A stretch of 34,957 bases of DNA from Dimargaris cristalligena (lineage: Eukaryota). Below, piece by piece: positions 13,719 to 30,200 of the stretch. The position numbers were made by a program, and so were the translations under genes. The notes beneath the pieces were generated by a model. It ran no database searches. It was given only the letters and a program-made list of their open reading frames with translations, and had not been told where the DNA came from. The stretch lies in NCBI GenBank assembly GCA_003614675.1, contig ML002385.1, positions 1 through 34,957 of the forward strand, in the 5' to 3' direction. Position 1 is the first letter of the stretch. Each line of letters starts with the position of its first letter.

Positions 13719-13892
13719 GTACGTCAAGCGTTGTTTCAGCTTCCTGCCTGTATTGCCCGACTCCCCCCGTTTGTGTATTATACACTTACCCACCCAACCA
13801 ACCGGTCCCAATCGGCCGTCATTACCGTCTACCTTCCTATTAAAAGTGTCTGAAGTCTGCCTGCCCTGGTCCAACTAAAACCTTCCCACTAG
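13719..13892 (+). other. Probable 5'-UTR intron of the Argonaute gene (174 nt)
   Basis: GTACGT donor at 13719, ACTAAA branch-like site at ~13874, pyrimidine tract and CTAG acceptor ending 13892. TATAAA at 13604-13609 upstream. Confidence 0.55.
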
Positions 13893-13971
13893 GTCGAATC
13901 GTTTTCCTATATACCTGTTCCCTTATTGTACACCACCCCTTAGCACACCCTCCCTCGGACCAAGCACCATT

Positions 13972-16524
13972 ATGGCCCAGCAGCTCACTATCGCGCAGCG
14001 TCCGGACTTTGGCACTCAGGGTGCCCGTTTACCCATTCACGCCAACGTCTACGAAATCACGAGCTTTGGCAAGGATACCATCCACCACTACGACTTCAAA
14101 ATCGACCCTGAGGTGCCCGCCGACCTGGGTCGCCAGGTGTTTGGGGCCCTGGAGAACCGGCAGCGCCACAAGGCCTTCAAGGGCTCCTTCCCCGTCTTTG
14201 ACGGCAAATTCAACGTGTTCTCGCCGGTTCGACTGGCCCTACAGAACAACACGGGCTCCTTCGAGGTGTATCTGCCCCGCGACGAGAAGCGCCGCCAGGA
14301 AGCACCCCAGGGCAAAGGTCCCAAACCCTTCAAAGTCACCATTAGCCACGCCGTCGAAATTAACCTGGCGCTCCTGCACGAGTTCATAGCCGGGCGCACC
14401 GGCAGTAGCCCGCCCGTCCAGATGGCCATCAATGCCCTGGACATTGCTTTCCACCACCTGCCCGCCAGCCAATACCCCAGCGCCAAGAACTCCTTCTACA
14501 CCTCGGCCGAAAAGCGACCTCTGTCGGGTGGGATCGAGGTGTGGTCGGGCCTGTTCCAGTCGGTGCGTCCCTCCTTGGGTCGCCTGGTCCTTAATGTGGA
14601 CGTGAGCTCGACGGCCTTCTATGCCGCTGGTCCCCTGTTGGACAGCGCCGCCAAATTCATGAACCTGCGCAGCCCCAGCCAGTTGACTTCCCTCCGGGAG
14701 GCCGACTGGCGTAAACTGCACAAGTGGGCCAAGGGACTGCCCATCACGGTGAGCCACCGGTCCGACGGCCGCACCTTCAAGGTGAAGGGCATCACCTCTC
14801 GAGGGGCCGACCGAACCATGTTCAAGCTGCGCCAGGATGACAACACCGAGATTGACATGTCGGTGGCGAACTACTTCACCAAGAATTTGAATGTCCGTTT
14901 GAATTACCCGGAGCTCCCCTGTGTCGAACTGAAGCGTGGGGTCATGCTGCCCCTGGAGATATGCCAGGTCGCCTCGGGCCACCGCTACCGCCGCAAACTC
15001 GACGAGAACCAGACGGCCGAAATGATCAAGTTCACCTGTGTAAAGCCCTCGGATCGGTTCAATCGTATCCGCAAGAATGCCGAGCAGCTGCTCCGGTTTG
15101 AGGCCAACCCCTACCTCAAGGCGTTCGGCATCAAGGTGGGCCGCGAGTTGCTCACTGTCGCCGGCCGGGTGCTTCCCCCACCCACCGTGATTTATGGTGC
15201 CACATCCCGGGAACCCACCATCCGCCCCCGGGACGGCTCCTGGAATATGCGCGACAAAAGGCTGGTTATGGGTGCTGACTTGCCCTCCTACGGGATTCTG
15301 GTGTTGGATCGACAGAGTGAGCAGAACAGTCGGATGGTTCTGGATTTCATGCAACAGTTCAACAACAACCTGCGCAACATGGGTATCAGAGTACCTAGCG
15401 GACGTCCCCAAATTGAATTCGGCCACCCGATGCAAGACATGGGCAGTAATCTTCGCAAGGCCTGGGATAGCGGCCGAAAGGCGTTTGGTGCACTACCCAA
15501 GATTATTTACGTGGTACTAGGCTCGACGGCTGCTGTGATTTACGGCGAGGTCAAACGTATCTCGGATACCCAAATGGGGGCTCCAACCCAGTGCATGCAA
15601 ATTAAACATTTGCGACGTCCCAACATCCAGTACATGGCGAACGTGGCCCTCAAAGTGAATGTTAAGCTAGGCGGTGTCAACAGCTATCTGGAGCCCCGTG
15701 ACACCCCGTTTCTGGCCCGCGAGCCCACGATGGTCATTGGGGCGGATGTGACTCACCCTGGCCCCGGCAACACCACCGACCCCTCCATCGCCGCTGTTAT
15801 ATGCTCGATGGATTCACGCATGACCAAATTCAAGAGCCAGGTCAGCCCCCTACCCCCGCGTACCGAGATCATCGCAAACCTGGAGGGCACGATGGCCCAA
15901 ATGTTCCAAGCCTTCCGAAACCAGACCACACAGCTCCCCCGCCGTATCCTGTTTTACCGGGATGGTGTGTCTGAATCCCAGTTCCAAACCGTGCTGACCC
16001 ATGAACTGGGGGCGATTAAAAAAGCCGCCGCATCCTTCTACAAGAATTCGGTCCCAGTTACCTTTGTGACTTGCCAGAAGCGCCACCATATCCGCTTTAT
16101 GCCCGCCCAGGCCAACCGGGCCGACCGCTCGGGCAATTGCCCCGCGGGTACCGTGGTGGACCGCGACATTACCCACCCCAAGGAGTTCGACTTCTTCCTG
16201 CAGGCCCACGGTGGCCTCCAGGGCACTTCACGCCCCACCCACTACACAGTGCTTCACGACGAGAACAAGTTCACTGCCGACAGCCTTCAGGTGCTCACCA
16301 ACCAAATGTGCTACCTGTTCCCCCGCTGTACCCGTTCCGTATCCCTGTGTCCACCCGCCTACTTTGCGGACCTGTTGGCCTTCCGCGCCCGTTACCACCG
16401 CCATGGTCGAGTAGAATCTACTGACGACGATGCTGGCAGTACTATTTCCACGGCCGCCCAAAACCAGCCCACTGCGCTGGTATCCGTCGTGGACCGATTG
16501 ACCAGTACTCTATACTTTATGTGA
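13972..16524 (+). CDS. Argonaute protein (N-L1-PAZ-L2-MID-PIWI), RNA silencing effector
   Basis: 850 aa uninterrupted. RPDFGTQG, GLFQSVRP, LNVDVSSTAFY, SVANYF..LNYPELPCV (PAZ), YGEVKR..TQC, KVNVKLGGVN (MID), GADVTHP, YRDGVSESQF, QKRHHIRF, GTVVDRDITHP, QGTSRPTHY, PPAYFADL (PIWI). Confidence 0.98.
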   Translation: MAQQLTIAQRPDFGTQGARLPIHANVYEITSFGKDTIHHYDFKIDPEVPADLGRQVFGALENRQRHKAFKGSFPVFDGKFNVFSPVRLALQNNTGSFEVYLPRDEKRRQEAPQGKGPKPFKVTISHAVEINLALLHEFIAGRTGSSPPVQMAINALDIAFHHLPASQYPSAKNSFYTSAEKRPLSGGIEVWSGLFQSVRPSLGRLVLNVDVSSTAFYAAGPLLDSAAKFMNLRSPSQLTSLREADWRKLHKWAKGLPITVSHRSDGRTFKVKGITSRGADRTMFKLRQDDNTEIDMSVANYFTKNLNVRLNYPELPCVELKRGVMLPLEICQVASGHRYRRKLDENQTAEMIKFTCVKPSDRFNRIRKNAEQLLRFEANPYLKAFGIKVGRELLTVAGRVLPPPTVIYGATSREPTIRPRDGSWNMRDKRLVMGADLPSYGILVLDRQSEQNSRMVLDFMQQFNNNLRNMGIRVPSGRPQIEFGHPMQDMGSNLRKAWDSGRKAFGALPKIIYVVLGSTAAVIYGEVKRISDTQMGAPTQCMQIKHLRRPNIQYMANVALKVNVKLGGVNSYLEPRDTPFLAREPTMVIGADVTHPGPGNTTDPSIAAVICSMDSRMTKFKSQVSPLPPRTEIIANLEGTMAQMFQAFRNQTTQLPRRILFYRDGVSESQFQTVLTHELGAIKKAAASFYKNSVPVTFVTCQKRHHIRFMPAQANRADRSGNCPAGTVVDRDITHPKEFDFFLQAHGGLQGTSRPTHYTVLHDENKFTADSLQVLTNQMCYLFPRCTRSVSLCPPAYFADLLAFRARYHRHGRVESTDDDAGSTISTAAQNQPTALVSVVDRLTSTLYFM

Positions 16525-17161: not shown

Positions 17162-18775
17162 TTATTGGCCTTGGCGAGGCTGAGATGATGGCGAAGCTTC
17201 ATCAGGTTTACTCAAAGAGCGAAGGAAATCGACATACGAGGAGGACTGGGTGCCTGTTGGCTGGGGGGGTGGCGGTGAAGTAAATCCCGGTTGGCCGTAG
17301 ATTGCGGCCTGGGGATGTTGGGGATAGTGGTGTGGGTGGGGTTGGTAAGACTGATGCGGATTTGGGTGGTGTTGGGGCTGGTAATGGGGTTGCTGCTGAT
17401 GTTGGGGATGGGGATGGGCATTAGTATGGGGATGAGGCTGGGGTTGTGCATAAGCGGGGGCGGGGGATTGGTTATCGGAAAAGAACATATCATCGTAATT
17501 TACGATCCGGGCATCGGGGCGGGCGGCGGGGAATAATGCCGACGGCCGGTCATCACTGAATGGATTCGACGGTGGAGCGATGGTCGGTCTAGGAGCGAAG
17601 AGCGACGACTGCGTCTGGGGCAGCGACTGTGGCTGTGGCTGCGATTGGAATTGAATCTGAGGCGGAGCATAAGAGTGAGGGTTAGGGTGTGAATATGGAT
17701 ACTGTTGTTGTTGCGGCTGTGAAGCATGGCTACCAAATGGGTTCATTCTTGTGGACGCTGACGCGAGAATGGAGGAAGCGGGTACTGACGCCACACCAGT
17801 AGTGGGTTTGCCCGCCGCCGCTGCCACCTGCTGTTTCCGGGCCTGGGCCTTGGCCCGCTTTTCCTTCTGTTTCTTCGCCTTATAATCCATCTCGGCATCA
17901 TCGTCCGAAAAGTCAACATCACTGCCCACGATTTCCTCGTCGTATAAATTACTGGCGTCCGACCCCTTATTCTGGGACCGTAGATAGTAGAGCGAGATTT
18001 TGGAAGCCGTTGGGGGGGAGTAGTAGAGGGTGGTGCCGAGGGCAATGTGCCACTTTTCGGTCAGTTCAACAGTCGAAGCGAAACGCACCACAAAAGTGGG
18101 GCGGAAAATGGAACCAATGGACTCGTCGAGGCCCCCAATTACCTGGCGGTCGCCCAGGGCAATGGGTGTACCCAAATTGAGGGTCTGGTTTTCCCGGTTG
18201 AGTTGTTCGGCCGTTTCTGGTGCGGAGGTGATCATGATGGCCCGGTCAACGATGGAGGAGACCTGCCCCAGTATGACAAGGGGGACATCGTCGGGAAGGT
18301 GGGTAATGGTCACTTGGGTGGGTTCGGCGTCGACGGCTTCATTTTTGGAGTGAATGGGCCGTTTGGAGTAGTTGTCATCATCGGCCCCCCCTCCGTCCTC
18401 GGGGGCTTCATCATCCGCAAACTGACCGGCGAGCTGGGCCATGCGGGCGATAATATCGCTGTCGTCGTCCGAGCTATCCGAGTCACTATCGTCATTGCCG
18501 GCGGGTTCGTTGTTTGTGGGGAGTTCAGGACTAACCGTAACGGGAGTGGGTTCAGGCCCCTTCTCGGGGACATGCGAAGTCTTTGGTGGTTCAGTCTGTT
18601 CAATAACAACAGCAGCCGTGTCGGGTTCGCTATCGGACTCGCCAGCTCCAATTAGGGCAGCGTCGAATTCCAAGGACTGGGTGGTTTCGCTCACGGCCGG
18701 TGCAACCGTCTCAGTTGCCATAACGGCCGGAGGAGGAGGGGTTCCCAAGGGGTTGTTAGAAGAGTTAGGTTCCAT
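17162..18775 (-). CDS. NAF1: H/ACA snoRNP assembly factor Naf1 (Gar1/Naf1 domain)
   Basis: Likely start at MEPNSS (18775), giving 537 aa. Acidic N-terminus, SKNE, LGQVSSIVD..LNLGTPIALGDRQVIG..PTFVVRF domain, hallmark KGSDASNLYDEE..DFSDDDAE, basic stretch and P/Q/H-rich C-terminus. Confidence 0.9.
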   Translation of the reverse strand: MEPNSSNNPLGTPPPPAVMATETVAPAVSETTQSLEFDAALIGAGESDSEPDTAAVVIEQTEPPKTSHVPEKGPEPTPVTVSPELPTNNEPAGNDDSDSDSSDDDSDIIARMAQLAGQFADDEAPEDGGGADDDNYSKRPIHSKNEAVDAEPTQVTITHLPDDVPLVILGQVSSIVDRAIMITSAPETAEQLNRENQTLNLGTPIALGDRQVIGGLDESIGSIFRPTFVVRFASTVELTEKWHIALGTTLYYSPPTASKISLYYLRSQNKGSDASNLYDEEIVGSDVDFSDDDAEMDYKAKKQKEKRAKAQARKQQVAAAAGKPTTGVASVPASSILASASTRMNPFGSHASQPQQQQYPYSHPNPHSYAPPQIQFQSQPQPQSLPQTQSSLFAPRPTIAPPSNPFSDDRPSALFPAARPDARIVNYDDMFFSDNQSPAPAYAQPQPHPHTNAHPHPQHQQQPHYQPQHHPNPHQSYQPHPHHYPQHPQAAIYGQPGFTSPPPPQPTGTQSSSYVDFLRSLSKPDEASPSSQPRQGQ

Positions 18776-19831
18776 GGCCAATAAGAGGGAAATGTAGAGC
18801 AATGTGACCAGAAAACGTATATCGATAAGCAAAGGTACTGTGAAGAGAACTAGGCATGTATGGTCCCAGTTATGCGCATTGAAACCGAAGTTTGCCAAAA
18901 AAAAAAAAAAAAAAACCGTGTGGTAAGGGTAATAAATTATCTGGTCAGTAATAGATGATTCTGCCACTGGAACCAACAAAATCAATGGCGTAAATAGGAA
19001 GCACTGGTGGCAAACGAAGTCACATGACCGGCCCATTGCGAGAAATACACCCATTACAATATTCCTATGTCACTGAATCTGCTGGACATTCCTCCGCCAC
19101 TACCTCTACAAATTTAGGGGGTTATTCTTCTAGTAGATACTATCACAAATCAAAAATATAAATGAAGTGTCCAAAATGGACTCAAGCGGAGCTTGGAGGA
19201 CTAGTTCAGGGCTCTGAATATGAGTGATCTGGTGGCTATTCATATTTTTATCATGGATTAGCATTCGGTTAACAGAGACACAGGAAGCACCACTGACGTA
19301 GAATTATGTTGACCCACACTACCCAATTCAGATAGTCCAAGTCAACCATTCACAACATTAAGTCACGTCAATGCCCTACCAATTTGGAATGCCCGAATTA
19401 CGGCAAGCTGGTTTAGAGACCTAGCTTATAATTAAGGAACTCATAGTATTAAAAAGGGGCTCGCTAATCAGATAAGATACATATATATACCGCTGCAAAG
19501 GGGTGTACGATTTATTGGAGGATTACAGACAACGGACATTAACAGCCCCCTCGCTGAATAAGTTAAACGAGTATCACCCTAGTCAAAGATCAAGGAGAGA
19601 GGGGGTAGAGTAGGGGGTATAAACAATATAGGGACATCAGTCCTATCTCGTTATATATAGCATAAATGGGCGAGATATGGGCCTGACCAACTTCCAGTAT
19701 GATTCCTATGCATTATAAGTACGAGTCAGGGTAATCGGGGCACTAACGTGTCTATAGAGAGAGGGGGGGGAGGGGATAAGCGCACGGGGGGGGGGTATAG
19801 CAATAAATAAAACTGCCCAGCGGCCAGTTAC

Positions 19832-20689
19832 TTAGTTGCCGAAAGTGAGAGAGAGACCCAGACGGTGGGCGTTCTCGTTCAACTTGGAGGTGTCGAACAG
19901 ACCACCCAGAGCCACAGTGACACCGGGGCGGAGAGACTGGGAGTAGCCGAGACCGAGCTGGCCAGCGTTGTTGATCTTGGCCTTGACGAAGGAGTAGGAG
20001 TCCAGGTAGTACTTGGTACCGACCTCGAGGTTGACAGCGTTGGCGGTGGACTTGGCGTCGAAGGTGGCCTTGGCACCGGCTTCGACATCGGCGCTGACGC
20101 GGTGGTAGAAGGAGGCGGCGAACAGGTTCAGGCCCTCGAGGGCGTGCAGGGCCACGGCGTAGTCGGGACCGGTGTAACCCAGGGCACCGGTGTATTTGGT
20201 GACCTTACCGTTGAGCAGGTCGTAGCCGACCTCACCACCGGCCAGAAAGCCGTCACGGCCGACCACCAGGTCGGTGTGGAAGGTGGGGCCCTTGAAGAGG
20301 TCGATCACCGACTTGGCGGTCAGGTTCTTCTGCTTGTAGTCCAGGGTGACCTTGGCGTTCTTCGCGCCACCGGTCACGGGGAGGAGGGAGCCGGCCACGT
20401 TCAGCTTCAGACCCTTGGCAGCCTGGTTCAGGACCTCAACTTCAGTGGTGAGCAGGTTCTTAGTGGTCCAGGAGTGGGTGAAGGTGAGGCCGTTGACCTT
20501 GTCGGCATATTTGGTCTTGAGCTCACCAGTGATGCCACCGGACTTCTGGTCCTGGGTACCGTTGACGGTGAAATTGACGCCGTTGGCGGTCAGGGTCTTG
20601 ACCTCCAGCTTGACGCTGCCGATGGGGAAATCCTTACCCAGGAGATCCTTGGAGGACTTGCCAATATCGCAGTAGGTGGGGACGGCCAT
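19832..20689 (-). CDS. POR1: Mitochondrial outer-membrane porin (VDAC)
   Basis: 285 aa. MAVPTYCDIGKSSKDLLGKDF N-helix, KLEVKT..NGVNF, SFYHRVS, VKAKINNAGQLGLGYSQSLRPGV, HRLGLSLTF beta-signal. Confidence 0.97.
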   Translation of the reverse strand: MAVPTYCDIGKSSKDLLGKDFPIGSVKLEVKTLTANGVNFTVNGTQDQKSGGITGELKTKYADKVNGLTFTHSWTTKNLLTTEVEVLNQAAKGLKLNVAGSLLPVTGGAKNAKVTLDYKQKNLTAKSVIDLFKGPTFHTDLVVGRDGFLAGGEVGYDLLNGKVTKYTGALGYTGPDYAVALHALEGLNLFAASFYHRVSADVEAGAKATFDAKSTANAVNLEVGTKYYLDSYSFVKAKINNAGQLGLGYSQSLRPGVTVALGGLFDTSKLNENAHRLGLSLTFGN

Positions 20690-21310
20690 GATGTTAAAGA
20701 AGCGAAGTGTGTGGAGGGATCGGAAGGATCAGGAAAGGGGAAGAACAAGTAATCAGGAGATGGACAACAGGAGTTGGTGTATAAGAGAGAAAAGCAAGAG
20801 CGGTGGCACAACTAAGTCCGTATTATACGTTGGCCGGAACGGGGTGGGCGGGTGGCTTCGGGTGATACACTGGCGGCGGGGCTGGGAAAGTGAATAGATA
20901 GCAGCAACGCCCTGCTAAACACCACTCCGAAACTCAGACCCGCCGGTTTGACTTAAGGATGGACCAATCACCGGTGGTTATTTTACCCTAATGCGCATAC
21001 AGCTAGAAGGGGGTGGCCTGACCTGTTTGCATTTGTCCCACCCGCACCGCCCAATGGCCAACGTGACTGAGGGGAAAGAGCCTATATGCTAACCGCAGCT
21101 TGTCCTACACAACACCCTCCTAATCGTGACGCCATGAGCATATAGGCTCCCCAACGACAACCCCGCGCGCCTTATCCATAAGAGAGACCCTCCCCTGCCT
21201 CCTTTTCCCAAACCCCCCGTTCACTACTTCTCTCCTACTCCACCCCGTATCACTCGTCCTTTACCTTTCCTTTACTTTATATTCCTTCCCCCACCCCACC
21301 CTCTACCACC
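20690..21310. promoter_or_regulatory. Divergent (probably bidirectional) promoter region between VDAC and PGK
   Basis: 621 nt head-to-head spacer. CCAAT at 20964 and 21051, TATAAT on minus at ~20822-20827, perfect 13-bp inverted repeat 21078-21090/21137-21149, pyrimidine-rich leaders on both sides. Confidence 0.7.
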
Positions 21311-22716
21311 ATGACCGATAACAAGCTAAGCAACAAACTGGGCCTCGCCGAGGTTGACGTCAAAGGCAAGCGTGTGCTGATCCGCGTCGACTTCAACGTA
21401 CCCTTCCAGAACGGCAAGATTTCCAACAACCAGCGCATCACCGCTGCCCTGCCCACTATCCAATACGCCCTGGACAAAGGTATGTCAGCTCCCCGGGATA
21501 ACTGCCCCTCTTCACTCATTCTATCGCATTGAAACCAACCCGGTTGACCCGCCCGCCTCCCCAACTCCATAACTCACCCCCCCCCGATTATACTATATTT
21601 TTCTATTTACGCACCCTGTCTCCAGATGCCTCCGCGGTTATTCTCATGAGCCACCTGGGTCGCCCCAATGGTGAAGTCGTGGCCAAATACTCCCTCCGCC
21701 CCGTTGCGGAAGAGCTCAGCAGCCTGCTCGACCGCCCCGTCGAATTCCTGGATAACTGCGTGGGTGCCGAGGTTGAGAAGGCCTGCGCCGCTGCCTCGGG
21801 CGGTAAGGTTATCCTGCTGGAGAACCTGCGCTACCACATTGAGGAAGAGGGCAGCCGCAAGGAGGCCGATGGCAAGAAGGTCAAGGCCGACCCCGCTGCC
21901 GTGGAGAAGTTCCGCGCCTCGCTGTCCAAGCTGGGTGACGTCTACGTCAACGATGCCTTCGGTACCGCTCACCGAGCCCACAGCTCCATGGTCGGAGTTA
22001 ACCTGCCCGTACGGGCCGCCGGTTTCCTGATGAAGAAGGAACTTGACTTCTTCAGCAAGGCCCTCGAGAACCCCGAACGGCCCTTCCTGGCCATTCTGGG
22101 TGGTGCCAAGGTGTCCGACAAGATCCAGCTGATTGATAACCTGCTCGACAAGGTCAACATGATGATCATCGGTGGCGGCATGGCCTATACCTTCAAGAAG
22201 ACCCTTGAGAACATGAAGATCGGCAACTCTCTGTTCGACCAGGCTGGTTCGGAAATTGTGGCCAAGTTGGTCGAAAAGGCCCACCGCAACAACGTCCAAT
22301 TAATCCTTCCCGTCGATTTCATCACAGCCGATGACTTCTCGCCCGACGCCAAGACCGGCTACGCCAAGCAGAGCGAGGGTATCCCCGAGGGCTGGCAGGG
22401 TCTGGACTGCGGTGACGAGTCCAACAAGCTCAACCGCGACGCTATCCTGAGCGCCCGCACCATCATCTGGAACGGTCCCTTGGGCGTGTTCGAGTTCGAA
22501 AAGTTCGCCACCGGTACCCGCAAGGGCCTGGAAGCCGTGGCCGAGGCCACCAAGAACGGCGCCACTACCATCATCGGCGGCGGTGACACCGCCACCGCTT
22601 GTGCCAAGTGGGATTTCGAAAACAAGGTCAGCCATGTCAGTACTGGGGGTGGTGCTAGTTTGGAGCTCCTTGAGGGTAAGGCCCTGCCCGGTGTGGCTTC
22701 CCTGTCCTCCAAATGA
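21311..22716 (+). CDS. PGK1: Phosphoglycerate kinase; exons 21311-21479 and 21626-22716 (419 aa)
   Basis: RVDFNVP in exon 1; [67 protein letters not shown] in exon 2. The splice restores the frame (K-D-A). Confidence 0.98.
21480..21625 (+). other. Spliceosomal intron of PGK (146 nt, phase 1)
   Basis: GTATGT donor, CCAG acceptor; joins two PGK-homologous frames. Confidence 0.93.
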
Positions 22717-23459
22717 TTTGCCAAATCAGGAACTCCCCATCTTTAAGGACCTGTGATTGGGGGAAAAGCAGAGGTGCGTTTATAGAGATATACCATTGGT
22801 ATGGTTACATTTGTCCCTATTAATTAGAACACCCCCCCCCCCTTTACCACTCTCTCCACTCCCGGTATTGTCGCAAACATTATTGGATGAGCAAGCTGGG
22901 GACGACTATGCTTCTTATTTGGGTTGGTTTTCCCCCAAGTAAACTATGCTCGTGCCTCTCGAAATCGAATGGCGGTTTCTACTGACTATTCAAAACTAAA
23001 AACAAATGCGCGTCTCCCCCCTCTCATTCCTCCCATTTCGGTCAAAATCAGCGCCCCCTTTCTATCTCTGCAATTCCCTAGCGGGTGAGCAGCTTTTGAT
23101 CCCCTGTATCCATTACATCTTATAAAAATATATCTATTTGGGAATAAACTTCAGTCAGGACTTTTATTTAAGGATGATACCCACAGGGTATTATTATATG
23201 AACTAACGAGTGATTGTGTACTATTGTCGGTAGGAAAGCGCCGGCCCTTTCTGATCTATGAGTGTGGTTTAAACCCAACTGGATTGTAGTTTGAATGGAC
23301 TTGCCAAGAAAATAGGCGCAAAACGGCATTATAAGTAGTATGCCCTACCACCATTCCTCAATTTTTTCGTTTTACAGCCTGACCAAACCTCACATATTGA
23401 TTTTTAATAACCTCCGTGATGGCTCATTTAAGCCGATGGAAGTCCGCGGGTTGGATCCA

Positions 23460-24419
23460 CTAAACATGGTTGCTCTTATGTCTAGTTAATTCCTCTTTCA
23501 GCATAAATGCCTTAGTGCACTTGCCACAGTGGAATTTATGGGTATTGTGCATGCGTCTTATATGTGTTTGAAATGTAAATTCAGATCCAAACTGAGTGTC
23601 GCATAGCGAACACTTTAAGTCACCGATTTCAGCGGAGGTACCGGGCAAGCTGGGGGCATTACCAAGTGGAGGAGGGGAATCCGCCTCCGGAAGAGCTGGT
23701 TGGCTAATCTGGTTAACCAAGGGTGGTTGGGGTTTAGGTACCATCATCACCCGGAAAGTTCCCGTGGTGGGGCCGCTGGGTCGAGGGAGGGGCTGAAACC
23801 TTTTCATTCGATCAGCCGGGGTAGCCAATCGGAGGGGGAGAAGAGAGTTGTTCAGTCGGGATGTAAATGGGCGTTCTAAACGTTGTTTCGCGATGAGCCT
23901 GGGCTTGGGCTTGGGCTTGGGTTTATCGGCTGATGTACGGAGGATGTACGGCGCACTACGGATATCATAGGACTGGCGTGGGTTATGGAGAGGGACGAGA
24001 CGAATCATATCAGAGGGTGGCGGCGGTGGGGAGGCGGGGTTTTCGTCATCACTATCGCCAATACCGCTACCACCACCCGTACTACTACTACTACTACTAC
24101 TACCACTTCCATTACTATCGGAATCGCTACCAGCGGAGACCGTTGGTGGTAGAAGTGCTGCGGGTGGCAGGTGGGGGGTTGTGAGCGGTAGCAGTATGGG
24201 CTGATGGCAGGGCACCGGGGCAGGGGTTGGTTGGTAAGGATGGTCGACCGGACTTTGTTCGGTCATGATTAAATTAAGCAAGTGATCGAGGGCCCAATCC
24301 TGGTCTTCCGGAAAAAACAACCCGGTAGTAGCGGAGGATGGTTGAAGGCCCCAGCTGCACCACAAAAGGATACACCACCACGCGCAGGGTAGGTGAGCTA
24401 TAGTAAGTAAACCCTTCAT
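23460..24419 (-). CDS. Two-finger C2H2 zinc-finger protein with an apparent N-terminal signal peptide (319 aa)
   Basis: First ATG at 24419: MKGLLTIAHLPCAWWCILLWCSWGLQPSSA|TT. C-terminal CSLCDTQFGSEFTFQTHIRRMH and CGKCTKAFMLKEELTRHKSNH. Pro/Ser-rich middle, basic KPKPKPKPR..KQR patch. Confidence 0.85.
   Translation of the reverse strand: MKGLLTIAHLPCAWWCILLWCSWGLQPSSATTGLFFPEDQDWALDHLLNLIMTEQSPVDHPYQPTPAPVPCHQPILLPLTTPHLPPAALLPPTVSAGSDSDSNGSGSSSSSSSTGGGSGIGDSDDENPASPPPPPSDMIRLVPLHNPRQSYDIRSAPYILRTSADKPKPKPKPRLIAKQRLERPFTSRLNNSLLPLRLATPADRMKRFQPLPRPSGPTTGTFRVMMVPKPQPPLVNQISQPALPEADSPPPLGNAPSLPGTSAEIGDLKCSLCDTQFGSEFTFQTHIRRMHNTHKFHCGKCTKAFMLKEELTRHKSNHV
24080..24102. repeat. (CTA/TAG)n trinucleotide microsatellite encoding the poly-Ser run of the C2H2 protein
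   Basis: tactactactactactactac run in the coding region. Confidence 0.75.
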
Positions 24420-26498
24420 TGGGAAGGTGGTGGTGGTCACGGGGCGGCTTAAGGGAGTTTGGTAATAAGCCCCAACAGAAAACGTTTGGTTTAGCGGCCC
24501 GTTGGTTGCCTAAAGTGATTCCGAATAGGCCAAAATATAATCGTAAATACTGTCAAAACGAAAATGAAATCATGAAAAAGAGTCAAACTGTTGAATTAAA
24601 CAAGGTCGATCTTAGAGAAATTACCGACTATTTATGCTATTTTTTATTTGCGCTCATAATTAGATATCTTTAATGGGTATGCACTTGCAAAAAAAAAAGC
24701 CAATATTTCCCTGGTCATCCATTGTTTACCTGAAGTGGATGAATTATACACAGCCCCAATCTGAAGATTGATGGTCAAGAGAAATGGACAGTTTTGTGGT
24801 ACCTAAATCTCACACTGCGCCAGCCAGTGGCCGCTTATCTGTAAATCATTATAATCGGCAGCCGCACTAGCCGTTTCTTTAGTTATTACCTATTGGGAAA
24901 TGGCAAGGTCTGGGTTGTACCTTTCCAACATGTGACGGAAGCAGGCATATCGCATGCGTTACACTGGTTTTTGAAACAAGTGATGGTGGATAAGACGTGG
25001 TTGAGATGCATCGTTATCAAATATGATAATCCGCTCAAATCCAGGGTGCCTTGTATTTTCCAGGACGGTCGCACCCTAGAGCCGCTCGAGATAATTTCAT
25101 GGTCGTGTGTGCGGATCGCCCACTATGGTCTAGTATATGGGTAATCGAAGGCGGGAGCTATCAAAGCGACGTGATAAACCGACTCGGAGATACTGTAAGC
25201 ACTTTAAAGCCGCTCGGCTAATAGTTGGATATCGCCTTTATACTCTCGGTGACCAAAGCCCCCAGCTTACCAATGACTGGACTTAGTAGCGATCTTGTTG
25301 ACCCAACGCCGACCTTACCAGTTCGTAAATTTTCCAATGATTTCATCTTTAGTAGTTATCTAAATGTATAAAGACAAATTGATAATCCATCGGGACATAC
25401 CTTCGTGGTTATTTCCATGATTATAGGCCAGTCCATCGGACAGTCACCCAAGCCATGCTGTACACCGTGTCCAAAGCCTTGCACTCTAGAGGCGATCATT
25501 ATCCGACTCTTAAGGGAATATCAGCTCTTAAGTGTTCCCAGCCTATATCCGATTTATAATCTAGTACCAGGGTTAGATTGTAATCCGTCATTATGATTTA
25601 ACTACTCTTCCCCGCGTTATTTAAGAGTTTTCTATATATTACAACTCATCCAGTTCAATGGGGGCCGTCTTTCTATAATAAGGCGTACTATTGATCAGTA
25701 ACGGGTATATTCTGTTGACGGTAAACACTGCAGCCTGGATTTATCACTTTCAAGAAATCTCAAATCAAGTGGTGTTTTTTTTTCCTGGGTTTTTACTGTT
25801 GTATTATACCCAAAATGTGTAGCCCAGTCCCAGGCTAGTAATGCCGATTTCCTACATTGTACATTCAGAAGTAGACATTGTTATAATTGAACGTAAAGTT
25901 TTATAAGGTATACCTTGACTAACTTGGGGCAAAAGTCTCTATTAGATCATTCTTGGCCCCGTACGCATGCATTGGGACTTGCAATTCACATTTTGCCCGA
26001 AAGATTATATTTATATGAATCTACAGTGGGTGTGAATAGTATTTATACATTTGCCGCTGGGTTCGATATAACTCCGACTACTTATGTACAGATAGATTAT
26101 ATCAGCCAATATCGGAGGGGGCTGTTACGATCTATTGCAATAGTCAACCCATTCGCCTGTTGGGAAGTGGATGGTTATCTTACTTTCGTTAGCTATCTCT
26201 CTGCTAACAGAATAAGCCGCGCCTTGCCATCCCTTCGGAACCCGCTCCAAACACATCTCCGATTCAACTATTTGTTAAAAGGTCCGTATATGAACATTGT
26301 CCTAGTTATTTGTGGTTATAAATGTTTATTAGGTGATGGAAGCGACAACTGGATAAACCAACTGGGGTTAACTAACAGAAAGGATTGGAATTCAAGTCGA
26401 ATAGGGGGTCGACTGAGGAGGGGGGGGGTACCTTGGGCGGATGACGGGCAGCGAGGCCACAAAAATTCGTTGAGGACGAGTATAGTGGAGTGGGGTAT

Positions 26499-26672
26499 TT
26501 ACCAGCCCCAGCTGGAGCCCCAGCCAAGGCCGACACCGCCGCTGTCGTTGCCGGACCCGCCGGTCAATTGGCGCTTGCTCAAATCAGGGGCGCGGAACTC
26601 AGAAGGGCCAGCCTGGGCACCAACGAAGAGAACAGCCACGGCGGCGATGACAGCGAAGCGAATGGAAACCAT
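26499..26672 (-). CDS. Secreted prepro-peptide, 57 aa, copy 2
   Basis: MVSIRFAVIAAVAVLFVGAQAGPSEFRAPDLSKRQLTGGSGNDSGGVGLGWGSSWGW*. Only 2 nt differ from copy 1 (gtt gtc vs gtc atc, V9I in the signal peptide). TATAAA at 26805-26810 and AATAAA at 26325-26330 on minus. Confidence 0.88.
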   Translation of the reverse strand: MVSIRFAVIAAVAVLFVGAQAGPSEFRAPDLSKRQLTGGSGNDSGGVGLGWGSSWGW

Positions 26673-26928
26673 GGTTAATAGAATGGATACAGTTAGTGGG
26701 GGGTTGAGGTGATAGGAGTTGGAGTTGGAGTTGGAGGATAAGCGGTGTGTTGGAGGGTAGTGGAACTTGTGGATGTCGTTTCTTGGTGGGCGCAGAAGAA
26801 CTCCTTTATATTCGCCGGGGGGAGGGGTTGCCAGGATAGAGCCGGTACGTCAATAGGTGCCTTATGCAATAAGGGACTTAGTCTACCTACCGTTCTAGAT
26901 TGACAATGGGTCATTAAGGTGTGGATCA

Positions 26929-27216
26929 TTGGCAGTTTGACACTCTGCTTCTACTTCCCAGGGCGCATTAGCTTGCGGTGTAGTAGGCCTTGCCGGCACC
27001 AATTGCATCCATCAAGGCGTGATTGCCAGAGTAGGTTGGGTTAAGCACATGTATTCTGCCGGCCAAAGGTCCGACGTACGCGAAGGATTCACCAAATTCC
27101 CATAGCTCCAGCCAAAGGTGGGTTATTTACACTGGATTGGTTAAAGTAAGCCTAGCCCAGTTAAATGACAGACAGGGCTTTAAACTAGGGAGATGATCCT
27201 GGTCGGAAAGTGTCTA
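26929..27216 (-). promoter_or_regulatory. 288-bp near-identical non-coding block upstream of the peptide gene (copy 2)
   Basis: Reverse complement of 5108-5395 with 6 mismatches. Confidence 0.5.
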
Positions 27217-30200
27217 GTAGCCGGGGAACTGCCAGCTGCAGCTCTCTAGCCGGTTGAGGCCTTGTCAATCGCCAAAGGTATCTTCCCTGTATCCCATGTA
27301 GAGCGAATACATTATGGCGCAATACCCAAACACAACTCCAGGCGAATCTTTAAATATTTAACATTGGCTGGTGAGCTGACCACCTACTCAGAAAGGGATC
27401 CGTCAATGAGGAACCACTATTGGTCGACCAGCCTATCTAACCCAGGGATGGGAACTCTCACCCGGGGACTGGGCCAACCCCCTACGAGGGAAGTTTGCCC
27501 TGGCAACGCAGCTTCCAGGCATATCCCTGGATTGTTATTCAAAGGAGTGGTGTATGCTGAGTGTGAAATGTTTAGCGACCTTGCACGGCGGCTCGATATT
27601 TTAGCCCGAAGTACTCACTAGTAGCCGTACCCATTGGCTTTAATTGAATTGCTCGGCTTTTGACCCCCGATAAAGCTGGGTCACCTAGTCTGCTATAATT
27701 CAGCCCTCTGACTCGGTGAATTATTCATTGTGCTCGATAACATTCTTCAATCGAGCACTTAGGGGCTGTTGCGCCGTAATAGCCACTTACCATATAGGAA
27801 GCGCATCTTGGCACTGCTTCGGACAGACCAAGCTTCTTTTTAGCAGAATAGTGGAGGTCCAATCACCCAAAAACAAAACACTACGAGGTAGTTGTAAACC
27901 AGCAATGGGTATACTGGATGATACACCGTGCCGATCCGCCCGGGTAGCCCTAATAGGTTCAGCAGTAAGCAGGGTTGTGAAGGTCGTCTCGACGCCGCTA
28001 ATTAGAATCACCTTATTTGGTTTATTGGGCTAAAAGGGCCTGGTTAGCAGTATGTGAGAATGACTTGCGTTAAATCCCCGACCATGACTCGTAGACCGCC
28101 CCGGGTGATTATGGGATTGACCTAGCCTGCACCCGGTGGACTTTTTAGTTCTACCCACGTACTCGTGACAGGGCCTATGTCGGTGGTTTAGGGCGGGAGG
28201 GCACAATCGACAAATACTAAGAATTCGCCTAGCACCAACCAAAATTCTGCGACTGGAGCTATGGATATCTATATTTTAAGAACCCTGCACTATCCCTACA
28301 ACGCTAACTTGTTAAGTTTAACTGTATAGTAACATCGTCCGGGGCAAACAGCTGGGCGATTGGTTGAAGATAAGCATTCCATTTGAAGGAGAAATTCATG
28401 AGAGTTGTTTTGGACGAACGGAGCGACTTCCCCTATTGCTCTATAGAGTAGTTTTGTACTACGTTGACTCGCGCAAAATTCGATTATACAACCTCATTAT
28501 GTTAATAGAGGGGAAATAAAATATAGAGCGAGGATTCGTTTCTTATCCTTCTCCCGTTTAAAATTCTTCCTACCAGCCGACCCTATTTAGTTTAGTTTAT
28601 TTTTAGAGTCAAAATGTATTATATGCCGTGGTCTTTACACATGTTCACGGCGACTTTCTGGATATTGCAGACCGTGTAATAGTCCATTGAGCGTAATAAG
28701 TATTGCCAATAAATAACAAAACGTTGACAGCATCCATTAATGGTAATAGGTCAGAGTTCGCATTTTGGGATTTCAAAGGGGTATGCTATCTTATCAGTCA
28801 ATGGATGACCGACCAATATGGACATTGCTATTTGTGACTAAGGGCATTCGACGATTTACTCTACTCCACTATAGCACCCCTTTCTATTTTTGAGGTTAAG
28901 GAGCGGCATGACAGAATGGATTTACCGTGGTAATTGGCATGAAGGGGTGGTGGTGGACTACTCCAATTGTAGACAATCACGCGTACAGTATTTCTAGTTC
29001 AGCGCAAACCACGCAGTGCTAGTGACATTATGTAACCTGGGATGAATGGTGAAGTGCAATTTGCTAGAACAGGATATTGGCGATAATTTTAATTGTTTTA
29101 ACTGGGTGCCATATACCTCGAATCCAGAGGAGTTAAATGTTCGCAATGTGTCTCCACTACTACGTGCAATGTTTATTCATTTTTTACCAATAACATCTGC
29201 CACATTAAGTGTATTTTTTGTTATACAGCCTTGTTGAACCTCCCACATGCGGTCGAAACAGGCGCACTATTACGTTATTGCCACTAGACTGCCGTGGAAT
29301 AGACAAACCTGGTAAATGTCCAGGTACAATAACTCTAGTCGGTCTTCGTTTACTCAGTGTAGCAGCCCCTACACTGCAGTGAAGCAATCTCGGGTGTGGT
29401 GGACCCCTCTTCCCTATAGCAGACACGGAGGATTCCAGATAGGCCCACTGCAATGGGAAGGCCGGCCGCCAGGACAATGTCCACTTTTCTCTGAAGAATA
29501 AGCAGCATACTAGCAAATCAGATACTAGGACCCTCCTATACCATGTCTCTCGCCGTGTCATTTCAACCCAGTGGCTCTATTGTCGACTAGTCCAGTACAG
29601 ATGGTCACCGTGGTAGCAAGTGATGTGCGGATGGCTTTCACGGTATTGGTGTGCAATATTCAGAGCGCGGATCCTAGTAGCTTCTATTCGTCCGCCGTAC
29701 TCATGTGGACCACTATCGACACAGCGACTTGTCACCTACTAGACTTATTTTATTTATTTTTCCGGTTGATAACCGCGTAGAGGTATAAGACGATTTCTAT
29801 TCGTGGTGAAAAGCGTTGGTAAAAGAGACATGGGTATATCATAGTAATCTTACGGATTTGGGGGCACTGTTAGAACACCTAACCAATCTGTCACCTTCAG
29901 TCGAGGCTCAATATCATTTATTCCCGTAGTAATACCAATACTCTTATTCATATGGGTGAAATTCGGCCCAGCTATATAAGGGTTTACATTATACGTGTAT
30001 GGGAAATGTATTTTTAACTAGTAATATTGGCCGAATCTAATGGATTTTTCGTTGTACAGCTTAGATGAACTTCTCCCATATGTATAGGGGGAACCTACAG
30101 GAATCATCATGTCAGTAGGTACAGTAAGGAATTGGCGCCTGGCAGGAGTGGGGAATTCCAATGGCATGTATAAAATATAAATGTCCCATCGAGGGTATGC

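What the first reader, a model, noticed from the sequence alone, without database searches (positions are those of the whole stretch)
23460..24419. Transcription-factor architecture behind a signal peptide: candidate secreted C2H2 effector
Seen, in order: MK + hydrophobic CAWWCILLWCSWGL + QPSSA cleavage-like site; acidic-hydrophobic FFPEDQDWALDHLLNLI containing LxxLL (LDHLL); Pro- and Ser-rich disorder; basic KPKPKPKPRLIAKQR; two canonical C2H2 fingers at the C-terminus. Knowledge: acidic/LxxLL segments, an NLS and C2H2 fingers typify nuclear activators, which normally lack signal peptides. Inference: an exported factor that could reprogramme a host nucleus, conceptually like TAL effectors, plausible if the organism is a haustorial mycoparasite.
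Basis: partly seen in the sequence, partly recalled or inferred. Interest (0 to 1): 0.72.

Follow-up and report, generated by a model that had tools for sequence, protein, structure and literature searches.

The report
Orphan zinc-finger gene with signal-like start
A fungal gene found in only one species encodes a mostly disordered protein that ends in two C2H2 zinc fingers and starts with a signal-peptide-like stretch, so it might be a secreted regulator aimed at a host nucleus, but nothing yet shows it is exported.

Summary
ORF 23460..24419(-) encodes 319 aa: MK, then 35 uncharged residues with a Trp/Cys-rich core, QPSSA, an acidic-hydrophobic stretch with one LxxLL, Pro/Ser-rich disorder, a KP repeat, and two C-terminal C2H2 fingers.

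A 98%-identical protein is labelled Dimargaris cristalligena, a mycoparasite. Outside the fingers no homologue was found.

Export is unproven. No RNA run is listed, no whole genome is held, and no signal-peptide predictor was available.

- **For M1 as the start:** it is the first AUG behind a C-rich, G-poor leader typical of real starts in this window.
- **Against M1:** it has C at -3, where seven genuine-looking starts have A. M52 has A at -3, and another annotation starts there.
- **Weak signal evidence:** a crude signal-peptide rule passes 17 of 200 open ATG frames in the window. No classical NLS pattern is present.
- **Precedent:** secreted C2H2 nuclear effectors are already known in Magnaporthe oryzae (MoHTR1-3).

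Best reading (about 0.5): a lineage-specific C2H2 regulator acting in the fungus itself. Secreted host-nucleus effector: about 0.2.

The parts
23460..24419 (-). Single-exon ORF of 319 aa plus stop (P0001). The identical protein is on record in public collections.
24330..24419 (-). Residues 1-30, the signal-peptide-like segment: MK, an uncharged hydrophobic stretch (core C12-L25 with 4 Trp and 3 Cys), then QPSSA with S at -3 and A at -1.
   Evidence: AF2 single-sequence model gives a helix at 10-23
24267..24329 (-). Residues 31-51, an acidic-hydrophobic segment (4 D/E, no K/R, pI 4.05) holding the only LxxLL match, at residue 44.
   Evidence: predicted helix 40-52
24264..24266 (-). ATG of M52, the alternative start. 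It has A at -3 and is the start of the 137-aa model P0002 from another annotation.
24015..24263 (-). Residues 53-135, an acidic Pro/Ser/Gly-rich disordered region. The Ser run is encoded by a (TAC)9.3 microsatellite at 24080-24107.
23625..24014 (-). Residues 136-265, a basic Pro-rich region (20 K+R, pI 11.35). It contains KPKPKPKPRLIAKQR (23880-23924). The KP repeat is a (TGGGCT)3.7 microsatellite at 23900-23921, and P0002 has one unit fewer.
23547..23612 (-). C2H2 finger 1, residues 270-291 (C-x2-C-x12-H-x4-H).
23466..23528 (-). C2H2 finger 2, residues 298-318 (C-x2-C-x12-H-x3-H).
24420..24479 (-). C-rich, G-poor 60-nt leader directly upstream of M1 (C 0.42, G 0.15), like the leaders of genuine-looking starts in this window.
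24521..24700 (-). AT-rich stretch (GC 0.28-0.32) upstream of the leader. That it is the promoter region is inference only.
23650..23881 (-). 232-nt intron implied by the other annotation's model P0002 (GT at 23881-23880, AG at 23651-23650). It shifts the frame and removes both fingers, so I judge it an ab initio artefact.

Best explanation
The ORF is a real, intronless gene that the searches found only in this species. Its protein is mostly disordered and ends in two classical C2H2 zinc fingers, so it is a sequence-specific nucleic-acid-binding regulator.

The most likely mechanism is inferred from the established behaviour of tandem C2H2 fingers:
- The two fingers and the basic Pro-rich flank (residues 136-265) bind DNA.
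- The acidic segments (31-51 and 52-135) recruit cofactors.
- The protein acts in the fungus's own nuclei.

The N-terminal hydrophobic stretch is really encoded and probably lies on the mRNA. I do not count it as a demonstrated export signal, for four reasons:
- Its initiation context is weak.
- A better-context AUG (M52) follows it.
- Its composition is Trp/Cys-rich and only marginally hydrophobic.
- Stretches like it arise at an appreciable background rate in this DNA.

Shown: the ORF, the fingers, the composition, the orphan status and the leader/context statistics. Inferred: DNA binding, nuclear site of action, and non-function of the hydrophobic segment.
For: - The fingers are genuine: two exact C2H2 patterns, 848 phmmer hits at E<=0.001 confined to the finger region apart from P0002, and PDB matches to CTCF, Aart, HKR3 and INSM1 fingers.
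- The fingers are in frame with a 319-codon ORF. The only competing model needs a 232-nt frame-shifting intron with a GTTTAG donor that deletes them.
- M1 has C at -3. All 7 genuine-looking starts with the same leader type have A at -3, and 7 of 8 presumptive starts have a purine there. M52 has A at -3, with the same 'atcATG' as the porin gene.
- An independent annotation of the species starts at M52.
- The crude signal-peptide rule passes 17 of 200 open ATG frames in the window.
- Four of the protein's 5 Trp and 3 of its 8 Cys sit in residues 1-30.
- On a hydrophobicity scale recalled from memory, the 14-residue core scores +0.25. The textbook signal peptide at 5634 in the same window scores -1.45.
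- No K[KR].[KR] NLS is present.
- In a published secretome prediction for this species, 815 of 7456 genes (10.9%) were called secreted (supplement file 5 of PMC9391592). A signal-like call on any single gene is therefore not rare.
Against: - M1 is the first AUG on the likely mRNA.
- Its 60-nt leader (C 25 of 60, G 9 of 60) belongs to a class found before only 14 of 1049 ATGs in the window. Seven of those 14 open genuine-looking genes. M52's upstream 60 nt (C 0.23, G 0.23) does not look like a leader.
- GC content rises from about 0.30 to about 0.5 at roughly 24520, upstream of M1.
- If M1 is used, MK plus 35 uncharged residues plus S-x-A fits the n/h/c layout of a Sec signal.
- Among 149 other proteins in hand that start with M (148 finger hits plus P0002), only about 3 (P0129, P0028, P0123) have a comparable N-terminus. 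Ordinary C2H2 proteins rarely look like this.
- A conserved regulator would be expected to have orthologues. None was found outside the fingers.
- The organism is a biotrophic mycoparasite, and secreted C2H2 effectors are known in another fungus.
Confidence: 0.5

Rival explanations
1. Secreted host-nucleus effector, the first reader's idea and MoHTR-like. Translation starts at M1. Residues 1-30 act as a cleaved ER signal. The mature 289-aa protein is secreted at the haustorial interface, enters the host fungus and its nucleus, and binds host promoters through the two fingers.
For: - n/h/c layout with S28 and A30 at -3/-1.
- First AUG behind a typical C-rich leader.
- The window's own public protein record is the M1 form.
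- Orphan status.
- Species label of a mycoparasite.
- Precedent: 20 predicted secreted DNA-binding proteins in M. oryzae, half of them C2H2, with MoHTR1/2 seen in rice nuclei. The paper calls MoHTR1/2 M. oryzae-specific, and the MoHTR3 abstract reports low conservation in other fungi.
- Only about 3 of the 149 other proteins in hand that start with M (148 finger hits plus P0002) have a similar N-terminus.
Against: - No predictor, transcript, proteome or localisation data.
- C at -3 of M1, against A at -3 of M52.
- A Trp/Cys-rich core of marginal hydrophobicity, compared with a true signal peptide in the same window (scale recalled).
- 8.5% background for the crude rule.
- No classical NLS.
- Neither annotation is known to rest on transcripts. 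The term 'transcriptom' occurs 0 times in PMC6784888. PMC9866270 defines its low-coverage genomes as lacking a transcriptome.
Confidence: 0.2
2. Two isoforms from one mRNA by leaky scanning. Some ribosomes start at M1 (weak context) and make an ER-targeted or secreted form. The rest start at M52 (good context) and make a 268-aa nuclear form that lacks the hydrophobic and acidic-hydrophobic segments.
For: - M1 has C at -3 and A at +4. M52 has A at -3.
- No other ATG in any frame lies between 24572 and 24266, apart from M1.
- Both starts have been chosen by annotators.
Against: Purely inferential. How strongly context governs initiation in this fungus is unknown, and the sample of starts is small (8, 14).
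Confidence: 0.1
3. Membrane-tethered zinc-finger protein. The 23-residue uncharged segment G3-L25 is an uncleaved signal anchor that holds the protein at the ER or nuclear envelope until proteolytic release.
For: - The 19-residue hydropathy window scores 1.61, near the usual transmembrane threshold (threshold recalled).
- It is the only hydrophobic segment in the protein.
Against: - The charge distribution (K2 before the segment; E38, D39, D41 and D45 after it) would put the finger domain in the lumen, where it could not reach DNA. This follows the positive-inside rule, which is established knowledge.
- H9 and P11 interrupt the segment.
- The 19-residue sum on the recalled scale is +2.33.
Confidence: 0.05
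4. Young, decaying or weakly expressed ORF, or a mis-modelled gene with an unseen upstream exon. On this reading the N-terminal residues have no biological meaning.
For: - Weak codon bias: log-odds per codon run from -0.45 to +0.28 along the ORF, and GC3 from 0.23 to 0.63, against 0.57-0.83 in five neighbouring genes.
- Two microsatellites lie in the coding sequence, and one varies between assemblies.
- No homologues.
- AG dinucleotides behind pyrimidine-rich runs inside codons 1-22 could serve as acceptors (read; not tested).
Against: - The 319-codon frame, both finger patterns and the typical leader are all intact.
- The ORF is identical in a second DNA source that differs at 9 other positions over about 7 kb.
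Confidence: 0.1

Closest known systems
MoHTR1, MoHTR2 and MoHTR3 of Magnaporthe oryzae (secreted nuclear C2H2 zinc-finger effectors; PMC7672089 passages, PMC10189765 abstract)
   Same: The predicted layout is an N-terminal secretion signal followed by C2H2 finger(s) with basic flanks. The gene is restricted to one species. The producer is a biotroph that feeds through an interface with a living host cell.
   Different: - Export, host translocation, infection-specific expression and DNA binding were shown for the MoHTRs. None is shown here.
- The host would be a fungus, not a plant.
- The producer is a zygomycete (Kickxellomycotina), not an ascomycete.
- MoHTR3 is called small in its abstract, whereas this protein has 319 aa and long disordered regions.
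- No sequence comparison with the MoHTRs was made, because no MoHTR sequence was fetched.
Ordinary fungal C2H2 transcription factors with two C-terminal fingers (Msn2/Nrg1/Mot3-type layout; recalled, not tested)
   Same: Long disordered acidic and basic regions followed by a C-terminal pair of C2H2 fingers.
   Different: - Such factors have orthologues across genera. This protein has none detectable.
- They lack a hydrophobic N-terminus.
- The linker between the fingers here is NTHKFH, not the TGEKP type (read; the TGEKP type is recalled).
TAL effectors of Xanthomonas
   Same: Only the concept of an exported protein that binds host DNA and carries an acidic activation segment.
   Different: - No TAL repeats: Pfam lists only zinc-finger-type and zinc-ribbon models at E<=1.
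- TAL effectors travel by bacterial type III delivery (recalled), not by a eukaryotic Sec signal.
- This protein is not a member.

Membership tests
C2H2 zinc finger (Pfam PF00096 / PF13894) | C-x2-4-C-x12-H-x3-5-H spacing of the zinc ligands | tested here: met
   Two matches, at residues 270-291 and 298-318.
C2H2 zinc finger (Pfam PF00096 / PF13894) | Score at or above Pfam's gathering threshold | tested here: not met
   PF13894 scores 24.9 bits against a cut-off of 27. PF00096 scores 22.6 bits against 25.2. With only two fingers the summed score falls just short.
C2H2 zinc finger (Pfam PF00096 / PF13894) | Significant similarity to established finger proteins | tested here: met
   848 phmmer hits at E<=0.001, the best finger-only hit at 1.8e-24. 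16 PDB sequences match at E<=0.01, including Aart, CTCF and HKR3.
Sec-type N-terminal signal peptide | Positively charged n-region, uncharged hydrophobic h-region, and c-region with small residues at -3 and -1 | tested here: met
   K2; uncharged run 3-37 with a 15-residue hydropathy of 1.70; S28 and A30. The crude rule also passes 17 of 200 open ATG frames in the window.
Sec-type N-terminal signal peptide | Call by a trained predictor (SignalP, Phobius, DeepTMHMM) | not testable with these tools
   No such predictor is available. The Atlas feature search on residues 1-60 gave no usable hit.
Sec-type N-terminal signal peptide | The segment is actually translated, with the start at M1 | tested here: inconclusive
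   For: first AUG, C-rich leader and GC step. Against: C at -3, A at -3 of M52, and another annotation starting at M52. No RNA run is listed.
MoHTR-type secreted nuclear C2H2 effector | Secretion and translocation into host nuclei | not testable with these tools
   This needs experiments. For MoHTR1/2 it was shown with RFP fusions (passages of PMC7672089).
MoHTR-type secreted nuclear C2H2 effector | Nuclear localisation sequence | tested here: not met
   There are 0 matches to K[KR].[KR]. The KP repeat and RLIAKQR are basic but not a classical monopartite NLS. A non-classical NLS is not excluded.
MoHTR-type secreted nuclear C2H2 effector | Expression specific to the infection stage | not testable with these tools
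   No RNA holder is listed.
MoHTR-type secreted nuclear C2H2 effector | Sequence homology to MoHTR proteins | not tested
   No MoHTR sequence was fetched. Outside the fingers, the only match found in any search is P0002 of the same species.
TAL effector | Tandem 33-35-residue TAL repeats | tested here: not met
   Pfam at E<=1 lists only zinc-finger and zinc-ribbon models and DUF7066. The tandem repeats in the gene are a 3-nt and a 6-nt microsatellite.

The most novel reading that the evidence does not exclude
A zygomycete haustorial mycoparasite exports a C2H2 zinc-finger protein into the nuclei of its fungal host to rewire host transcription. One mRNA makes two forms by leaky scanning: from M1 an exported effector, and from M52 a form that stays in the parasite's own nucleus. 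As far as my two literature searches show, this would be the first DNA-binding effector reported for a fungus-on-fungus parasitism. It would also be the first from the early-diverging fungi.
Probability: 0.15. Interest if true: 0.7.

Novelty: new member of a known kind. Interest (0 to 1): 0.35.

Why it matters
If the protein is exported, trans-kingdom-style transcriptional reprogramming, so far shown for plant pathogens, would extend to fungus-on-fungus biotrophy in an early-diverging lineage. It would also give a concrete handle, in the form of DNA-binding specificity and host target genes, on how haustorial mycoparasites keep their hosts alive.

If it is not exported, this is one more species-specific C2H2 regulator. 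It would then serve as a warning that signal-like N-termini in ab initio gene models of single-cell or low-coverage genomes need transcript support.

One practical by-product concerns start codons in this window. Genuine starts sit behind a C-rich, G-poor leader with A at -3. That pattern could help to re-annotate starts in this genome.

Tried and rejected
- **RNA evidence:** The look-up of sequencing runs listed 5 DNA runs from 2 studies and no RNA holder. Transcript start, splicing and expression could therefore not be examined.
- **Whole genome:** none is held for this window. Signal peptide plus C2H2 proteins could not be counted and no paralogues could be sought.
- **Cross-strain selection test:** contigs of 4 runs were laid on 19500-27500. 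The only non-source run (X5) differs at 9 positions over about 7 kb, none of them inside 23460-24419. The two microsatellites were skipped by the tool. No dN/dS or indel test was possible.
- **Homologues:**
  - Whole protein, near lengths: 3137 candidates, none at E<=0.001.
  - Residues 1-62: 1 candidate, none at E<=10.
  - Residues 125-268: 383 candidates, none at E<=1.
  - These three searches covered only proteins of 175-559 aa.
  - The exhaustive phmmer search showed only P0002 outside the fingers among the 150 listed of 848 hits. The other 698 were not seen.
- **Codon-usage log-odds along the ORF:** codons 1-30 score -0.45, but the finger region also scores -0.30 to -0.35. The measure does not discriminate.
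- **RNA hairpin around the M1 AUG** (a CCA-rich tract pairing with a TGG-rich tract): MFE -36.9 kcal/mol, z = -1.19, and 25 of 200 shuffles fold as well. Rejected.
- **Open-frame argument for coding upstream of M52:** frame 2 is also stop-free from 24555 to 24276, so openness carries little weight.
- **AlphaFold2 single-sequence model:** mean pLDDT 46.5, with helices at 10-23 and 40-52. Too poor for a fold search.
- **ESM Atlas on residues 1-60:** no usable feature hit, and structural rows at TM 0.37-0.51 with no family.
- **Rfam on 22700-26000:** 0 matches.
- **Earlier findings of this scan:** nothing by place, words or sequence.
- **Names of signal-like C2H2 hits (P0129, P0028, P0123):** the sources give none.
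- **Literature:**
  - No passage on zinc fingers, C2H2 or transcription factors in PMC9391592.
  - Its 11 held supplement files have no PF00096 or zf-C2H2 entry, and two of them were cut when stored.
  - Two searches for nuclear effectors of mycoparasites returned no paper on that subject, judged from the listings only.
- **Hypothetical upstream exon:** an exon from the ATG at 24722, spliced to the CAG at codon 21/22, would be in frame. Its donor would be GTGCAT and the exon holds a T10 run. This was read by eye and not pursued.
Full report
**1. What is there**

On the minus strand an ATG at 24419 opens a 319-codon frame that ends with a stop at 23462-23460. The frame stays open upstream to a stop at 24512-24510. 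M1 is the only in-frame ATG before M52 at 24266.

| Residues | Feature |
|---|---|
| 1-2 | MK |
| 3-37 | Uncharged run of 35 residues |
| 12-25 | Hydrophobic core with 4 Trp and 3 Cys |
| 26-30 | QPSSA |
| 35-51 | Acidic-hydrophobic stretch; the single L..LL match is at residue 44 |
| 52-135 | Acidic, Pro/Ser/Gly-rich (pI 4.05) |
| 136-265 | Basic, Pro-rich (pI 11.35); includes the KP repeat and RLIAKQR at 166-180 |
| 270-291, 298-318 | Two exact C-x2-C-x12-H-x3-5-H patterns |

- The Ser run is encoded by a (TAC)n microsatellite at 24080-24107. The KP repeat is encoded by a (TGGGCT)n microsatellite at 23900-23921.
- All of the highest hydropathy windows of the protein lie in residues 1-25.
- A single-sequence AlphaFold2 model is poor (mean pLDDT 46.5). 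It shows only helices at 10-23 and 40-52 and otherwise no confident structure.

**2. The fingers are real**

- The two Pfam finger models fall just under their gathering scores (24.9 vs 27 bits; 22.6 vs 25.2 bits).
- An exhaustive phmmer search of 1.84 billion representatives gave 848 hits at E<=0.001. Of the 150 listed, 149 match only within residues 215-319.
- Sixteen PDB sequences match at E<=0.01, among them Aart, CTCF, HKR3 and INSM1.

**3. Organism and context**

- The neighbours are eukaryotic housekeeping genes: Argonaute (13879-16524, +), a Gar1/Naf1-domain protein (17162-19069, -), VDAC porin (19832-20728, -) and phosphoglycerate kinase (PGK; 21311-22716, +).
- PGK has one GTATGT...CAG intron of about 146 nt.
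- The one hit outside the fingers, P0002 (137 aa, 98% identical over residues 52-182), is named by its source as a hypothetical protein of Dimargaris cristalligena.
- The exact 319-aa protein is also on record in public collections.
- Passages of PMC9866270 describe the Dimargaritales as mycoparasites. That they are haustorial is my recollection.

**4. Orphan status**

- Word-indexed searches found nothing with the whole protein, residues 1-62 or residues 125-268. Each covered proteins of 175-559 aa only.
- The phmmer list shows no match outside the fingers other than P0002.
- The best finger matches in that list are at most 41% identical, and most are proteins with many fingers.

**5. Is the hydrophobic segment translated?**

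No RNA run is listed and no genome is held. I could therefore use only sequence statistics from the window.

For M1:
- (a) The 60 nt upstream of six presumptive starts are C-rich (0.42-0.48) and G-poor (0.02-0.10). These starts are Argonaute, porin, PGK, the 434-aa ORF at 1741, and two small secreted-peptide ORFs. M1's leader has C 0.42 and G 0.15. The 60 nt before M52 have C 0.23 and G 0.23.
- (b) Such leaders (C>=25 and G<=9 of 60) precede only 14 of 1049 ATGs in the window. They make up 2.1% of all 60-nt windows.
- (c) Seven of those 14 open genuine-looking genes, and M1 is an eighth.
- (d) GC content steps up from about 0.30 to about 0.5 near 24520, upstream of M1.
- (e) M1 is the first AUG after that step.

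Against M1:
- All seven genuine-looking starts in that class have A at -3, whereas M1 has C.
- Seven of 8 presumptive starts have a purine at -3.
- M52 has A at -3, in the same 'atcATG' as the porin gene.
- The other annotation starts at M52. That model also contains a 232-nt intron (23881..23650, donor GTTTAG) that shifts the frame and deletes both fingers. I regard the intron as an ab initio artefact, so the model carries little weight.
- Neither annotation is known to rest on transcripts. PMC9866270 defines its low-coverage genomes as lacking a transcriptome. PMC6784888 does not contain the word stem 'transcriptom'.

Uninformative tests:
- Codon usage.
- A possible hairpin around the AUG (z = -1.19).
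- A second DNA source, which has no substitution in the ORF.

My estimate is that some initiation at M1 is more likely than not (about 0.65), with leaky scanning to M52 plausible.

**6. If translated, is it a signal peptide?**

- The layout fits the n/h/c scheme: K2, an uncharged hydrophobic stretch, and S and A at -3 and -1.
- The charge balance is K2 before the segment and four acidic residues after it. By the positive-inside rule (established knowledge), this favours translocation of the C-terminal side.
- The core is unusual, with 4 Trp and 3 Cys among 14 residues. On a hydrophobicity scale that I recalled from memory it sums to +0.25. The corresponding 14 residues of the textbook signal peptide at 5634 in the same window sum to -1.45.
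- My crude rule is passed by 17 of 200 ATG frames in the window that are open for 51 codons or more. The likelihood ratio is therefore modest if the start is in doubt.
- Conversely, among the 149 other proteins in hand that start with M (148 finger hits plus P0002), only about three have a comparable N-terminus (P0129, P0028, P0123). A correctly modelled C2H2 protein rarely looks like this.
- A published secretome prediction for the species of 7456 genes (10.9%) secreted (supplement file 5 of PMC9391592).
- No trained predictor was available, and that is the main gap.

**7. Other parts of the interpretation**

- The 'NLS' is basic, but the K[KR].[KR] pattern has no match anywhere in the protein.
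- The LxxLL is a single occurrence of a short motif and carries little weight.
- The acidic-hydrophobic helix at 40-52 is compatible with an activation segment, but that was not tested.

**8. Comparison with what is known**

- The idea of a signal peptide on a C2H2 protein is not new.
[quoted passage not shown] MoHTR1 and MoHTR2 were seen in rice nuclei and bound DNA on arrays (passages of PMC7672089). MoHTR3 is described as a small secreted C2H2 protein (abstract of PMC10189765).
- The present protein shares the predicted layout and species restriction. It has none of the functional evidence.
- It is not a TAL effector.
- Two literature searches returned no paper on nuclear effectors of mycoparasites, judged from the listings only. 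A validated case would therefore be new for fungus-on-fungus parasitism.

**9. Verdict**

- The interpretation can be neither confirmed nor refuted with the tools at hand.

| Reading | Weight |
|---|---|
| Lineage-specific C2H2 regulator acting in the fungus itself; the hydrophobic N-terminus is unused or not functional | 0.5 |
| Secreted host-nucleus effector | 0.2 |
| Dual isoforms by leaky scanning | 0.1 |
| Membrane tethering | 0.05 |
| Meaningless or mis-modelled ORF | 0.1 |

Interest is moderate (0.35). It is a reasonable candidate worth a predictor run and a signal trap. It is backed only by heuristics, and the concept has a clear precedent.

Noticed in passing
window 5634-5807 (+) and 26499-26672 (-): Two near-identical 57-aa ORFs differing only at residue 9 (V/I). 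Each has a textbook Ala/Val/Leu-rich signal peptide, a KR dibasic site and a Gly/Ser/Trp-rich tail. They look like a duplicated small secreted pre-pro-peptide gene. They lie in an inverted duplication of about 1.45 kb (roughly 5024-6468 against 25780-27300). Laid contigs show extra diverged copies and uneven depth at 26199-27200.
   Followed up: partly
window 7151-7480 (-): A 109-aa ORF with a signal-like N-terminus, a C-rich G-poor leader and A at -3. Pfam found no family on the stop-to-stop frame 7151-7591. It is another candidate small secreted protein.
   Followed up: no
window-wide; starts at 1741, 5634, 13972, 21311 (+) and 7480, 20689, 26672 (-): Genuine-looking start codons in this window share a C-rich (>=25 of 60), G-poor (<=9 of 60) leader and A at -3. 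Only 14 of 1049 ATGs have such a leader, and 7 of those 14 open plausible genes. This could serve as a start-codon signature for re-annotating the genome.
   Followed up: partly
proteins P0129 (243 aa) and P0028 (406 aa), unnamed, from public assemblies: Among the zinc-finger hits, these two have signal-peptide-like N-termini followed by arrays of C2H2 fingers. Their sources give no name or organism. They suggest the signal-plus-finger layout recurs elsewhere.
   Followed up: no
window about 21480-21625 (+): The PGK gene has a 5' exon starting at 21311 and one phase-1 intron of about 146 nt with a GTATGT donor and a CAG acceptor, read. It is the only confidently placed intron I saw in the window.
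   Followed up: partly
window 1741-3045 (+): A 434-aa ORF with a typical leader, a strongly hydrophobic N-terminal segment and no Pfam family.
   Followed up: no
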